Of a stretch of 64,000 bases of DNA, positions 42,001 to 45,000 are shown in pieces. This stretch comes from a virus (taxonomy: Duplodnaviria; Heunggongvirae; Uroviricota; Caudoviricetes), in IMG/VR virus record IMGVR_UViG_2541047712_000002. One strand, given 5' to 3'. Made by a program: the position numbers. Each line of letters starts with the position of its first letter. Position 1 is the stretch's first letter.

Positions 42001-45000
42001 GCGTGCACATTATTATATATTTTTATTTAATATAAGATTAACTGAGATATAGCTTACGCAAAGAAGGTAATAAATATAAAGAGAGATGTTCTGAGGTAAT
42101 TTATTGTTGGTGTTTAAGGTTATTTACAGATAGGTAAGTGCATACCTATATAAAAAAGATAAAATGTGATATAAATCCGCCATCCCGATTTGACTTTTCA
42201 TGGAGGAAAATATGTCGAACGAGATGGCGGGCGTAACAACAGAGCAAGTTGAGCGCATTGCCGCGATCGTTGCTCGGGAGGTTGTCGGCAAATTAGGTAA
42301 AGAGCTACGTGAAGAAATTGGCCAGGAGGTCAACGATCAGCTGAAAACCTACTTTGGTGATATGACCCCGGCGCAACATAGTATTCAACACTCCAACCTG
42401 GACAAACTCCTTAACCGGTTAGATTCCATCTCCAGTGGGTTCTTTGGCGGCATTGTTTCTAAAATAACGTCGTTCATTATTACCGCACTGCTTTTGGGGT
42501 TAGCCGCGTATGGCGTGAAAAATGGACTGCAATAACAGGAGATCAAGGATGAAGACTCCGAGAGGCATTCGTAACAATAACCCCGGTAATCTTGATAAAG
42601 GATCGCCGTGGCAAGGTCTGGTTGCTAATCCAGACGAACCCCGCTTTTGCACGTTTAAAGACCCTGTTTGGGGGATTCGTGCGCTGGCGGTGACTCTAAT
42701 TACCTACCACGACAAACGTCGCGCAAAAGACGGCTCAAGTATCGATACCATTCGTGAAGTTATTGAACGCTGGGCACCGCCGAACGAAAATAACACTGAC
42801 GCCTATATTAATGAGGTGTCCAAAGCAGTTGGTGTAACCGCAGACATGATTATCGATCTGCATGATTACGACATCCTTCGACCTTTAGTTGAGGCAATCA
42901 TTCGCCACGAGAATGGCCGAGGCCCGCTAAAAACGCTGAACACCTGGTATGCGGCAGAAGTTATTGAGGAAGGTCTGCGTCGAGCTGGCGTCGTTAAGCC
43001 GGTGAAAACGGTGAAGGCTGTTCCTGTAACGAAAGAAACCGCAGGCGCAACTGTTACAGCAGGTATTGGTCTGGCGCAGCTTGCCGATGTTATGCCGCAG
43101 ATTTCCGCTGCTATGGATAAAGCACAAGGTCATATCTCTAGCGGGGATACAGTACGCATCATCTTCGGTATTGCCACTATTGTTGTGGCAGGATTCATTG
43201 CCTGGTCGCAGGTAAGAAAACACCAGAAAGGGATGGTCTAATATGCTAGGCAGCCTGATGACAAAGCTAAAAGTTGCTTTGATTATGCTGGCTGCCGTTC
43301 TTTTCGTTCTTGTCGGCGCTTACACGATGGGCGGAAATGCGGCGCGACGAGCAATGGAAGAGAAGGCAAAACAGGAAGACAGAAAACGACTTCAAAACAC
43401 AGTGAAAGTGGTGAATGAGACGAGCAGTAAAATACGTCAGAAAGATGCTTCTGCCGTTCATCGTGAGTTGTATGATAAGTGGGTGCGTCATTAAACCACA
43501 AACAGCCAGCGTGTTGTTCTGCGATGGGGCTGAGCCTATCTATATCAGCAATAATGATGTAATGACTGAAGAAACCGAACGCCAAATCCTTTTTCACAAT
43601 ACGATGGGAGAGAGGGTTTGTGGTTGGTGATGTCGAAGTTCCCCTCAAATGAGGGGAACACATTATTCTTCGAACAATTTTTCGATAGATTTTGTAGGAT
43701 AGAACAAAGAACGCTCGTTGTTACCAACCAGCTGGATAAAGCCTAAACTTTTATAAAACGCCTTGGCTTTGTCATTTAACGCCTCAACGAAAAGTCCATG
43801 AATGCCTACAGCAAGAGATGCATTGTACACAACGCGCATTGCATGTGTTACAAGCATTGAGCCAAATCCTTGACCTTGAAGGGACTTGTCCAAAGCCAGC
43901 CTACCCAAAGTAACACTTGGAACATTCCGATAAGGAACCTTCTTTTGTTTGCTTCTTGAAGGTAAGGACTCCTTTTCAAAACAACTACCTGACAAAGTGT
44001 AATATCCTAACACTTTTGGCCTTTCTTCTTGAGTGCAAAGCACATAAGCACGAAGAATTTTTCCCTCATGCTGCCTTTTTAAGTGGTTGGCTAAAAAGGC
44101 GTTTAGTGACTCTTCGCCGCAATCAAAACCGTTTAGATCATAATCTTTCTCTCCAGAGAAAATCTCTATCGTTGTATTGCTCACGAGTAAACTACTCCAT
44201 GCTTTTCAGACGATCAGCAGCTCGTTTCAGCTTGTCGTTCGGTGCCGGAGGATTGCTTATAGCGTCCATAACCAGATTCCAGGATTCTTCATTCAGAACT
44301 AGTCTACGGTGTTGCTCTATAACTTTCACGGCACGTTCAGATGCACTGCTAACCATAAACTGAGTAATGCTCTGGTTAGACATTGCGGCAGCTTCCTCGA
44401 TGATGCTTTTATCGTCATCGGTTAATCTCAAATCGATGCGCTGCTTTTTTAGTGCTGACATGTATTCCTCCTGATGGCCGTGATGTAGGAAGGCCATCAA
44501 TCTCCTCTGTTCAAACTGAGTTTTCGACTCAAAAATTACTTTAAAAGGCTATAGCCCATTACGTGTGCATTATCAAATTGTGTACGGCATATCACCGTAC
44601 TTGTAATATAGAGGTCATTGTTACTTTTTTCAACAGACAAATACAAGCTATGATTGCCAATTGTTAACCACAACCTACCATTTAACCTTTACACCGCAGC
44701 CGTAGGCATTTAGGCTATATCACATATAAGAAAACAAGTTGTTTCAGACGATAATTATATACGCAAAGGGAACTCTCCAATGACCAAGATCTTTGTGGTT
44801 GGCGGCACAAAGGGCGGGCCTGGCAAATCCACCGTTGCCCAGCAAATTGCCGTTTGCCTGAAAGTCAAAAAGAAGAAGAAGGTTTATATTACCGATATAG
44901 ATATTCAGCGCACGACAACGAGCTGGTGTGAAGACCGTCGACAGAACGAAGACCTTGAGCTGATTCCTTTTGCATACGTTCAGGATGACATCATTAAGCA

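What the first reader, a model, noticed from the sequence alone, without database searches (positions are those of the whole stretch)
43663..44461. GNAT-toxin / DUF1778-antitoxin pair carried as a moron right after the lysis cassette
The upstream small DUF1778 protein (RIDLRLTDDDKSIIEEAA) and the downstream GNAT acetyltransferase match the AtaRT/TacAT family, whose toxins acetylate aminoacyl-tRNA. Being carried by a phage-like element that also encodes its own tRNAs makes its interplay with host and element translation worth a look; it may stabilise the element or act in abortive infection.
Basis: partly seen in the sequence, partly recalled or inferred. Interest (0 to 1): 0.45.

Follow-up and report, generated by a model that had tools for sequence, protein, structure and literature searches.

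The report
AtaRT-type toxin-antitoxin on phage-plasmid
This is an intact but ordinary toxin-antitoxin gene pair of the well-studied AtaRT/KacAT family, sitting in a swappable cargo slot of an SSU5-like E. coli phage-plasmid; the identical pair has already been annotated and published as a gene expressed during lysogeny.

Summary
On the minus strand, 44461-44192 encodes an 89-aa DUF1778/TacA antitoxin and 44184-43663 a 173-aa GNAT toxin. They are 76-80% identical to AtaR/KacA and 70% identical to AtaT, without gaps. The catalytic Tyr144, the acetyl-CoA loop, most tRNA-contact residues and the antitoxin's DNA-reading residues are kept. The upstream palindrome matches that of chromosomal ataRT at 17 of 19 bases.

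The window is an SSU5-like E. coli phage-plasmid. The pair is a self-contained 1045-bp cassette (promoter, operator, two genes, hairpin) between the Rz1 stop and a conserved block upstream of parA. Relatives carry other cargo in this slot.

It occurs in 152 of 5426 complete E. coli genomes, always on plasmids, and is under strong purifying selection (dN/dS about 0.05).

The identical pair in phage Cyrano/pLF82 is annotated as a KacT-type toxin and was reported as a moron transcribed in lysogens (Misson 2023).

The most likely role is post-segregational stabilisation of the plasmid prophage. A defence role has no support so far. The suggested link to the element's own tRNAs is not supported, because Cyrano has the same pair without tRNA-Tyr.

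Verdict: already known, low interest.

The parts
43628..44672 (-). Whole replaceable cassette (1045 bp) lying between the Rz1 stop codon and the conserved block upstream of parA
   Evidence: Homology to SSU5 stops at 43622 and to PhiR41_1 at 43627. Homology to both resumes at 44673. Junction alignments include Klebsiella pJN2-26.
43638..43659 (.). G+C-rich hairpin GTTCCCCTCA-AATG-AGGGGAAC between the convergent Rz1 and toxin genes. It is terminator-like on the + strand and lies 3 nt beyond the toxin stop.
   Evidence: Terminator scan and sequence. It lies inside the variable cassette.
43663..44184 (-). GNAT toxin, 173 aa, GTG start; an AtaT/KacT-clade aminoacyl-tRNA N-acetyltransferase
   Evidence: 120/171 residues identical to AtaT with no gaps. 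Gly108, Tyr144 and the QGQGFG loop are kept. dN/dS is 0.055-0.063 against the second allele.
44192..44461 (-). DUF1778/TacA ribbon-helix-helix antitoxin, 89 aa, ATG start
   Evidence: 80% identical to KacA and 76% to AtaR. Arg8, Asp10 and Arg12 are kept. dN/dS is 0.035.
44467..44472 (-). Shine-Dalgarno AGGAGG of the antitoxin, 5 nt before the ATG
   Evidence: Sequence
44582..44600 (-). Probable operator palindrome GTACGGTGATATGCCGTAC (GTACGG-N7-CCGTAC), directly downstream of the -10 hexamer
   Evidence: The same motif lies upstream of O157:H7 ataR (GTACGGTGACATACCGTAC, 17/19 identical), of the second allele and of a 67%-identical plasmid pair. KacA and AtaR bind a palindrome that spans the transcription start (PMC6698736).
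44605..44633 (-). Sigma-70-like promoter TTGAAA-17 nt-TATATT (10 of 12 matches)
   Evidence: Promoter scan. This is a consensus match only.
43415..43630 (+). Context: Rz1-type spanin, the last gene of the lysis cassette, convergent with the toxin
   Evidence: phrog_1275 E=1.3e-24; Cyrano and SSU5 annotation
44780..45448 (+). Context: ParA partition ATPase, divergent from the antitoxin
   Evidence: NCBIfam ParA_partition 1.9e-33 and Pfam MipZ/AAA_31; phrog_164

Best explanation
This is a functional type II toxin-antitoxin cassette of the AtaRT/KacAT clade, carried as exchangeable cargo by an SSU5-like E. coli phage-plasmid. By analogy with AtaRT and KacAT, the operon is transcribed from its own promoter during lysogeny. 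Antitoxin dimers, through their ribbon-helix-helix N-termini (Arg8/Asp10/Arg12), bind the GTACGG-N7-CCGTAC palindrome at the transcription start and repress it. Repression would be strongest as a toxin2-antitoxin4 hexamer. The antitoxin C-terminus wraps the toxin and blocks acetyl-CoA binding and toxin dimerisation. When antitoxin supply stops, most plausibly in a daughter cell that has lost the low-copy plasmid prophage, the labile antitoxin decays. The freed toxin dimer then uses acetyl-CoA to acetylate the alpha-amino group of charged tRNAs; the clade-A targets are Gly, Trp, Tyr, Phe and initiator Met. Translation is arrested and plasmid-free segregants are removed or halted. The cassette would thus back up the adjacent ParA partition system. 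Shown here: the gene structure, family membership, conserved catalytic and DNA-binding residues, the operator motif, the cassette boundaries, the exclusively plasmid-borne distribution and purifying selection. Shown in the literature for the identical sequence: transcription in lysogens. Inferred only: toxicity, tRNA targets, antitoxin lability and the stabilisation role.
For: Identity: PDB matches to AtaT at 1e-79 and KacT at 4e-75, and to KacA at 7e-42 and AtaR at 1e-40. The toxin is 70% identical to AtaT with no gaps. Of the 18 AtaT residues shown by mutagenesis or structure to matter (PMC7595197), 15 are identical (L27, F30, H34, R37, S76, S78, K79, K81, K82, P84, Y85, R95, G108, L136, Y144) and 2 are conservative (R71K, K77R). 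The operator palindrome is shared with chromosomal ataRT. Selection: dN/dS is 0.055-0.063 for the toxin and 0.035 for the antitoxin between the two alleles, and the toxin is full length in all 28 IMG/VR loci with the same context. Distribution: 152 of 5426 complete E. coli genomes, on plasmids in all 152 and on chromosomes in none. In PLSDB, 143 of 145 carriers have the same Rz-TA-parA context, and this holds even in large cointegrates. Position: divergent from parA, in a low-copy element (5.5 copies per cell for Cyrano, PMC9928086). Expression in lysogeny of the identical genes is 35-60 times background. Precedents: the GNAT/DUF1778 pair GmvAT promotes vertical transmission of pINV (PMC6519299), and phd-doc does so in phage-plasmid P1 (PMC7969092). 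A 71%-identical pair lies next to ParA and ParM on another element (L039).
Against: There is no experimental test of toxicity, neutralisation or plasmid stabilisation for this orthologue. SSU5, PhiR41_1 and the Klebsiella relatives do without it, so it is not required for maintenance. One tRNA-side residue differs non-conservatively (R40E, with V36K nearby), so the targets may differ from those of AtaT. About a third of carriers also have chromosomal ataRT (50 of 152). If its antitoxin cross-neutralises, it would blunt post-segregational killing. The promoter and terminator are consensus-level predictions only.
Confidence: 0.6

Rival explanations
1. Abortive-infection or competitor-exclusion module. 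Infection of the lysogen by another phage shuts off host transcription or translation, the antitoxin decays, and the toxin arrests translation before the invader completes its cycle.
For: The pair sits in a cargo slot that holds different accessory genes in different lineages, which is the usual architecture for defence cargo. It is expressed in lysogens. Other type II toxin-antitoxin systems act this way (cited in PMC9177977), and SSU5-group phage-plasmids do carry defence systems (10.1101/2025.09.12.675607).
Against: Neither protein matches any PADLOC model. No paper in the searched library links GNAT/DUF1778 pairs to phage defence. The adjacency to parA and the plasmid-only distribution are explained at least as well by an addiction role.
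Confidence: 0.15
2. Host-benefit moron. Stochastic or stress-triggered toxin activity produces non-growing, antibiotic- or macrophage-tolerant cells, as reported for Salmonella TacT and Klebsiella KacT.
For: KacT overproduction induces antibiotic tolerance (PMC9431474), and TacT is linked to persisters in macrophages (PMC5959882 title and abstract). The identical pair is carried by the macrophage-surviving strain LF82.
Against: The published effects rest mainly on overexpression. Other adherent-invasive strains that persist in macrophages lack Cyrano-like plasmids (PMC12931692). Nothing in the sequence distinguishes this role.
Confidence: 0.12
3. Purely selfish hitch-hiker, or a decayed pair with an inactive toxin, giving no effect on the element or the host.
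For: Toxin-antitoxin cassettes spread as selfish modules. Related phage-plasmids lack this one.
Against: dN/dS is about 0.05, and the catalytic and cofactor residues are intact in both alleles. The toxin is full length in 28 of 28 viral loci. The operon is transcribed.
Confidence: 0.08
4. Translation switch tied to the element's own tRNAs. The toxin inactivates host charged tRNAs while element-encoded tRNAs escape or compensate.
For: Tyr-tRNA is a major and Asn-tRNA a minor AtaT substrate. The element's tRNA-Tyr has G4-C69, A5-U68, G6-C67 where the host has three G-C pairs. Breaking that G-C run lowers acetylation of tRNAfMet to 10-50%.
Against: Cyrano carries the identical pair with Asn/Thr/Ser tRNAs and no tRNA-Tyr. 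This tRNA-Tyr is about 92% identical to that of lytic rV5-like phages, and the cluster is shared with P7 and D6, so it did not evolve with the pair. The main clade-A targets Gly, Trp, Phe and fMet have no element-encoded copy.
Confidence: 0.04

Closest known systems
AtaR-AtaT of E. coli O157:H7 (chromosomal, between panM and livJ; PDB 6AJM, 6AJN, 6GTS, 6GTQ)
   Same: Same gene order and sizes. The toxin is 70% identical over 171 residues without gaps and the antitoxin 76% identical. Tyr144, Gly108, the QGQGFG loop and the alpha-3 tRNA-contact residues are kept. The operator palindrome is 17/19 identical and lies just after the -10 hexamer.
   Different: This pair is plasmid-borne in all 152 carriers, whereas ataRT is chromosomal in 1625 genomes. 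DNA identity is only about 66%. The leader between operator and start codon is about 120 nt, against about 25 nt in ataRT. The toxin has R40E and V36K substitutions and a GTG start. The antitoxin's C-terminal neutralising half is 71% identical, so cross-neutralisation is uncertain.
KacA-KacT of Klebsiella pneumoniae (PDB 5XUN, 5ZGN)
   Same: It has the closest antitoxin (80% identical), and the toxin matches at E=4e-75. Arg8, Asp10 and Arg12, which read the operator in the KacAT-DNA structure, are kept. The expected T2A4 hexamer and conditional cooperativity come from this model.
   Different: KacAT is a chromosomal locus of another genus. No binding or stoichiometry data exist for the pair studied here.
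CYRAN_26/CYRAN_27 of Escherichia phage Cyrano (= plasmid pLF82 of strain LF82)
   Same: The DNA is 100% identical over 43663-44461 (NC_011917.1), the proteins are identical, and the context is the same Rz1-TA-parA arrangement. It is already annotated as a 'KacT acetyltransferase-type toxin' and listed among the lysogeny-expressed morons.
   Different: Nothing differs in the pair itself. The flanks are 98-99% identical and the tRNA cluster differs: Asn/Thr/Ser there, Asn/Tyr/Thr-like/Ser here.
GmvA-GmvT of Shigella pINV, and phd-doc of phage-plasmid P1
   Same: They are functional analogues: toxin-antitoxin pairs that promote vertical inheritance of a low-copy plasmid or plasmid prophage. GmvAT is also a GNAT/DUF1778 pair.
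   Different: GmvT belongs to the Gly-specific clade D (PMC9177977), and phd-doc is an unrelated family. A stabilising role for the present pair is inferred, not shown.

Membership tests
AtaRT/KacAT clade of GNAT-DUF1778 type II toxin-antitoxin systems | Two small adjacent co-oriented genes, antitoxin first and toxin second, with a short gap | tested here: met
   The 89-aa gene is followed after 7 nt by the 173-aa gene on the minus strand.
AtaRT/KacAT clade of GNAT-DUF1778 type II toxin-antitoxin systems | Toxin is a GNAT-fold protein closely related to AtaT and KacT | tested here: met
   The Pfam GNAT families score above their cut-offs. PDB sequence matches are 1e-79 and 4e-75. Identity to AtaT is 70%, which is at least as close as AtaT is to KacT (67%).
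AtaRT/KacAT clade of GNAT-DUF1778 type II toxin-antitoxin systems | Catalytic Tyr144 and an acetyl-CoA loop containing Gly108 | tested here: met
   The gap-free alignment shows Y144 in AFYKSLGF and G108 in QGQGFG. The roles of these residues are described in PMC7595197. Both are also kept in the second allele.
AtaRT/KacAT clade of GNAT-DUF1778 type II toxin-antitoxin systems | Basic and serine residues of helices alpha-1 and alpha-3 that hold the tRNA acceptor stem (H34, R37, R40, R71, S76, K77, S78, K79, K81, K82, Y85, R95) | tested here: met
   9 of the 12 are identical, R71K and K77R are conservative, and R40E is not. The feature is largely met, but target preference could be shifted.
AtaRT/KacAT clade of GNAT-DUF1778 type II toxin-antitoxin systems | Antitoxin with a DUF1778/TacA domain and ribbon-helix-helix residues Arg8, Asp10 and Arg12 | tested here: met
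   Pfam TacA1 5.7e-26. KQRIDLRL is kept. The roles of these residues are described in PMC6698736.
AtaRT/KacAT clade of GNAT-DUF1778 type II toxin-antitoxin systems | Palindromic operator at the promoter and transcription start | tested here: met
   GTACGG-N7-CCGTAC lies directly after the predicted -10 hexamer. The same motif is found upstream of O157 ataR and of two other family members. Protein binding itself was not testable.
AtaRT/KacAT clade of GNAT-DUF1778 type II toxin-antitoxin systems | Toxin arrests growth and the cognate antitoxin neutralises it | not testable with these tools
   This needs expression assays. Purifying selection is only indirect support.
AtaRT/KacAT clade of GNAT-DUF1778 type II toxin-antitoxin systems | Acetylation of the alpha-amino group of charged tRNAs (Gly, Trp, Tyr, Phe, fMet for clade A) | not testable with these tools
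   Predicted from clade membership (PMC9177977; PMC7595197).
Phage moron | Self-contained unit with its own promoter and terminator, absent from related phages, and not needed for the lytic cycle | tested here: met
   A promoter-like site and a hairpin are present. The junctions are sharp and other cargo occupies the slot in SSU5, PhiR41_1 and pJN2-26.
Phage moron | Expressed from the repressed prophage | not testable with these tools
   Reported for the identical genes in LF82: 35 and 60 times local background (PMC9928086).
Plasmid addiction (post-segregational killing) module | Carried on a low-copy plasmid, typically near the partition or replication genes | tested here: met
   All 152 E. 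coli copies are on plasmids. The pair is divergent from parA. A 71%-identical pair lies beside ParA and ParM.
Plasmid addiction (post-segregational killing) module | Antitoxin less stable than the toxin, and plasmid loss kills or arrests segregants | not testable with these tools
   This needs protein half-life and plasmid-loss measurements.
Known anti-phage defence systems (PADLOC-DB 2.0) | A protein matches a defence-system model | tested here: not met
   Neither toxin nor antitoxin matches any family at E<=0.01.

The most novel reading that the evidence does not exclude
The toxin could be part of a translation switch of the phage-plasmid. When it is released, it would disable host Tyr-, Gly-, Trp- and Phe-tRNAs. 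The element's own tRNA-Tyr has an acceptor stem in which A5-U68 breaks the G4-G6:C67-C69 run that AtaT prefers. It might therefore escape acetylation and keep element genes translated. A milder version concerns cross-talk: in the third of carriers that also hold chromosomal ataRT, the two systems may cross-repress or cross-neutralise through their near-identical operators.
Probability: 0.04. Interest if true: 0.65.

Novelty: already known. Interest (0 to 1): 0.2.

Why it matters
If the stabilisation role holds, the cassette helps explain how SSU5-like phage-plasmids persist in about 3% of sequenced E. coli, including clinical lineages. That would be a further example of an established principle (phd-doc in P1, GmvAT in pINV) rather than a new one.

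Two points are modestly useful. First, the Rz1-parA junction is a sharply bounded cargo slot with at least three alternative contents, two of them of unknown function. Second, one carrier in three also has chromosomal ataRT with a nearly identical operator, which gives a natural setting for testing cross-talk or anti-addiction in the GNAT family.

Tried and rejected
1. PADLOC scan of both proteins and of the alternative cargo genes: no hits, so there is no basis for calling it a known defence system.

2. Literature search for GNAT/DUF1778 together with phage or abortive infection: only generic mentions.

3. Coupling to the element's tRNAs: rejected, because Cyrano has the identical pair but no tRNA-Tyr, and the tRNA cluster is a mosaic shared with P7, D6 and rV5-like phages.

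4. Structured leader RNA between the operator and the start codon: the fold is not significant (z = -1.58; 17 of 200 shuffles fold as well), so no claim is made.

5. Exclusion between this pair and chromosomal ataRT, which would suggest anti-addiction or incompatibility. A concatenated query gave 1625 chromosomal and 152 plasmid hits in 1727 genomes, so 50 genomes have both. Independence predicts 45.5. There is neither exclusion nor enrichment, though phylogenetic non-independence was not corrected.

6. The longer TTG-started antitoxin reading frame (to 44500): rejected, because AtaR and KacA align from the ATG at 44461, which has a strong Shine-Dalgarno sequence.

7. Pfam and PDB searches of the SSU5 and PhiR41_1 cargo genes and of the ParB-like protein: nothing informative.

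8. Repeats that might mark a recombination site at the cassette junctions: none found beyond short chance-level matches.

9. The large protein-database searches and structure prediction were not run. Identity of 70-80% to solved structures made them unnecessary.
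Full report
**1. What is there**

Both genes lie on the minus strand.
- The antitoxin is 44461-44192, 89 aa, starting MSALKKQRIDLRLTDDDKS. Its ATG is preceded by AGGAGG.
- After a 7-nt gap comes the toxin, 44184-43663, 173 aa, with a GTG start.
- The finding's coordinates run exactly from the toxin stop to the antitoxin start, and the quoted peptide is residues 8-25 of the antitoxin.

Database matches are far beyond chance.
- Pfam gives TacA1/DUF1778 at E=5.7e-26 for the antitoxin. For the toxin, four GNAT families score above their curated cut-offs.
- Against Protein Data Bank sequences the toxin matches AtaT at E=1e-79 and KacT at 4e-75. The antitoxin matches KacA at 7e-42 and AtaR at 1e-40. 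The TacT/TacA, ItaT and AtaT2 groups lie far behind, at 1e-21 or worse.
- Pairwise, the toxin is 70% identical to AtaT (120/171, no gaps). The antitoxin is 76% identical to AtaR and 80% to KacA.
- AtaT and KacT are themselves 67% identical (PMC6698736). The pair is therefore a full member of that clade, which is clade A of PMC9177977.

**2. Are the functional parts intact?**

The alignment to AtaT has no gaps, so residue numbers transfer directly. Yashiro et al. (PMC7595197) identified the residues that matter by structure and mutagenesis.
- Identical here: L27, F30, H34, R37, S76, S78, K79, K81, K82, P84, Y85, R95, G108 (acetyl-CoA binding), L136 and the catalytic Y144.
- Conservative changes: R71K and K77R.
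- Non-conservative: only R40E, with V36K next to it.
- The antitoxin keeps Arg8, Asp10 and Arg12, which read the operator in the KacAT-DNA crystal structure.

A second allele of the pair, about 91.5% identical in DNA, circulates in sibling plasmids (L004, L005). Between the two alleles dN/dS is 0.055-0.063 for the toxin and 0.035-0.038 for the antitoxin. The toxin is full length in all 28 IMG/VR loci that share the context.

**3. Regulation signals**

On the minus strand a sigma-70-like promoter, TTGAAA-17-TATATT (44633-44605, 10 of 12 matches), is followed at once by the palindrome GTACGGTGATATGCCGTAC at 44600-44582.

I fetched the chromosomal ataRT locus of O157:H7 (L006). It has GTACGGTGACATACCGTAC in the equivalent place, 17 of 19 bases identical. 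The second allele has GTACGGTAAATTGCCGTAC. A 67%-identical pair on plasmid pGF130-A has GTACGGTATTTTTCCGTAC. So GTACGG-N7-CCGTAC is a family-wide motif. It fits the published statement that KacA and AtaR bind a palindrome spanning the transcription start.

Unlike ataRT, the window has a leader of about 120 nt between the palindrome and the start codon. Its predicted fold is not significant (z = -1.58), so I make no claim about it.

At the other end, a hairpin at 43638-43659 lies 7 nt after the Rz1 stop and 3 nt after the toxin stop.

**4. The element and the slot**

The window is an SSU5-like phage-plasmid of E. coli.
- The 2.6 kb around the pair is 97-99% identical to Escherichia phages Cyrano and CMS-2020a and to many E. 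coli plasmids of about 110 kb.
- Upstream lie a holin, an endolysin (phrog_873, 1.6e-88), Rz and Rz1.
- Downstream, divergent from the antitoxin, lie ParA (NCBIfam ParA_partition, 1.9e-33) and a small partner protein, then a helicase and a primase.

BLAST against SSU5 and PhiR41_1 shows that homology stops at 43622-43627 and resumes at exactly 44673 in both. Junction alignments that include Klebsiella pJN2-26 show two things. The left break is at the Rz1 stop. The right break is at the start of a block of about 60 bp that is almost invariant across all four elements.

The slot holds different cargo in different elements:
- the 1045-bp toxin-antitoxin cassette here;
- two forward genes of unknown function in SSU5 and PhiR41_1, which are homologous to each other at 31% identity;
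- a single reverse gene in pJN2-26.

The cassette brings its own promoter, operator and hairpin. 'Moron' is therefore an accurate description, and 'next to the partition genes' is equally accurate.

**5. Distribution**

- At megablast sensitivity the pair is found in 152 of 5426 complete E. coli genomes, once each, always on plasmids and never on chromosomes.
- In PLSDB it is found in 145 plasmids (140 Escherichia, 3 Shigella). Of these, 143 also match the flanking Rz and parA sequence. Large cointegrate plasmids keep the same local context.
- About 685 PLSDB plasmids match the parA side, so roughly a fifth of SSU5-like plasmids carry the pair, and more than half of those from Escherichia or Shigella.
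- In IMG/VR, 28 of 30 loci have the same context. Mixed combinations of toxin allele and flank allele indicate recombination at the slot.
- Two 71%-identical relatives sit elsewhere: one beside ParA and ParM on a 90-kb contig, the other beside a lambda-type integrase.

**6. Already known**

The DNA of 43663-44461 is 100% identical to plasmid pLF82 of strain LF82 (NC_011917.1). That plasmid is the phage-plasmid Cyrano. Its record annotates CYRAN_26 as 'KacT acetyltransferase-type toxin' and CYRAN_27 as 'putative antitoxin'.

Misson et al. 2023 (PMC9928086) list both among the morons of LF82 prophages. Transcript levels are 35 and 60 times the local background in lysogens. They also show that Cyrano forms virions and is kept at about 5.5 copies per cell.

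RefSeq labels the proteins as GNAT family N-acetyltransferase and TacA-family antitoxin. I found no functional test of this orthologue, and no paper linking GNAT/DUF1778 pairs to phage defence.

**7. How it most likely works**

The mechanism comes by direct analogy with AtaRT and KacAT. Everything in this list is inferred from the family, not shown for this pair.
- The antitoxin represses the operon at the palindrome, most strongly as a T2A4 hexamer.
- Its C-terminal half blocks acetyl-CoA binding and toxin dimerisation.
- When the antitoxin is not replenished, the toxin dimer acetylates charged tRNAs and stops translation.
- Clade A toxins hit Gly-, Trp-, Tyr-, Phe- and initiator Met-tRNA. 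Peptidyl-tRNA hydrolase can reverse the damage on elongator tRNAs.

The most likely biological role is post-segregational stabilisation of the low-copy plasmid prophage. Four observations favour it:
- the plasmid-only distribution;
- the position beside parA;
- the strong purifying selection;
- the precedents of GmvAT on pINV (PMC6519299) and phd-doc on P1.

I put about 0.9 on 'functional AtaRT-clade toxin-antitoxin pair' and about 0.6 on that plus the stabilising role. Abortive infection (0.15), host persistence (0.12) and a neutral selfish cassette (0.08) remain open.

**8. The tRNA idea**

The window has tRNA-Asn, tRNA-Tyr and tRNA-Ser. Tyr-tRNA is a major and Asn-tRNA a minor AtaT substrate.

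The element's tRNA-Tyr has G4-C69, A5-U68 and G6-C67, whereas the host tRNA has three G-C pairs there. Breaking that run in tRNAfMet lowers acetylation to 10-50%. That is suggestive, but three facts weigh against any coupling:
- Cyrano has the identical pair with Asn/Thr/Ser tRNAs and no tRNA-Tyr.
- This tRNA-Tyr is about 92% identical to that of lytic rV5-like phages, and the rest of the cluster is shared with P7 and D6.
- The strongest clade-A targets (Gly, Trp) have no element-encoded copy.

I rate this reading at about 0.04.

**9. Relation to chromosomal ataRT**

At blastn sensitivity, chromosomal ataRT (about 66% DNA identity) is present in about 30% of E. coli genomes.

A concatenated query gave 1625 chromosomal and 152 plasmid hits in 1727 genomes. 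So 50 genomes carry both, against 45.5 expected by chance. There is no exclusion and no enrichment. One example is strain AMSCJX04.

The operators differ at only 2 of 19 positions, and the antitoxins are 81% identical in the DNA-binding half and 71% in the neutralising half. Cross-repression is therefore plausible, and cross-neutralisation is an open question. Work in Klebsiella found mostly cognate-only neutralisation, with one exception (PMC9431474).

**10. Verdict**

The observation and the main interpretation are correct, but the object is ordinary. It is a canonical, intact member of a structurally and biochemically well-characterised family. It sits on a well-known phage-plasmid family, and the identical copy is already annotated and published as a lysogeny-expressed moron. 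Novelty: already known. Interest: about 0.2. What value remains lies in the cargo slot, the untested role, and the natural co-residence with ataRT.

Noticed in passing
window 55066-55195 (+), between tRNA-Tyr and tRNA-Ser: This is a tRNA-Thr-like gene. Its acceptor, D and T arms match the tRNA-Thr of Cyrano and P7, but the anticodon-arm region is replaced or expanded by about 57 nt. ARAGORN and Rfam do not call it. The 133-nt stretch folds better than shuffles (z = -3.0). It could be an interrupted or intron-bearing tRNA, or a tRNA-derived RNA.
   Followed up: partly
window 8859-9380 (-): A 173-aa protein matches Pfam PF03614 'Repressor of phase-1 flagellin' (FljA) over its full length at E=1.4e-68. 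It lies in a minus-strand block (7912-13515) that also holds a ResIII/DEAD helicase at 11539-13098. A phage-plasmid-borne flagellin repressor could alter the motility or H-antigen expression of the host.
   Followed up: no
window 45448-45807 (+): The 119-aa gene overlapping the parA stop is annotated 'RelE/ParE putative toxin' in Cyrano (CYRAN_29). It has no Pfam, PDB or PADLOC support for that. It matches only phrog_5111 (unknown function) and a weak ribbon-helix-helix-like NCBIfam hit. Its position and size fit the small centromere-binding partner of ParA, so the toxin label is probably wrong.
   Followed up: partly
L002 2797-3953 (SSU5_031/032) and L003 3521-4696 (PhiR41_1): This is alternative cargo at the same Rz1-parA slot: a two-gene module (132-140 aa plus 233-258 aa; the larger proteins are 31% identical) ending in a shared terminator. 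It has no Pfam, PADLOC or PDB match, only phrog_2594 and phrog_3307 of unknown function. It is a candidate unknown accessory or defence pair.
   Followed up: partly
window 44673-44730: A block of about 60 bp just upstream of parA is almost invariant between E. coli, Salmonella SSU5 and Klebsiella pJN2-26 elements, although the neighbouring genes are only 80-86% identical. It is probably the par centromere or the parA operator, and it marks the right edge of the cargo slot.
   Followed up: no
window 54898-55512: The tRNA cluster is a mosaic. The Asn and Thr-like parts are about 95% identical to those of P1-group phages P7 and D6. The Tyr and Ser parts are about 92% identical to those of lytic rV5-like phages. 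Sibling SSU5-like elements carry different sets.
   Followed up: partly
L011-L037 and L040 (IMG/VR loci): Toxin alleles (100% against about 94%) and flank alleles (ParA 100% against 93%; Rz 99% against 67%) occur in mixed combinations. This indicates recombination within or around the slot rather than simple co-divergence.
   Followed up: no
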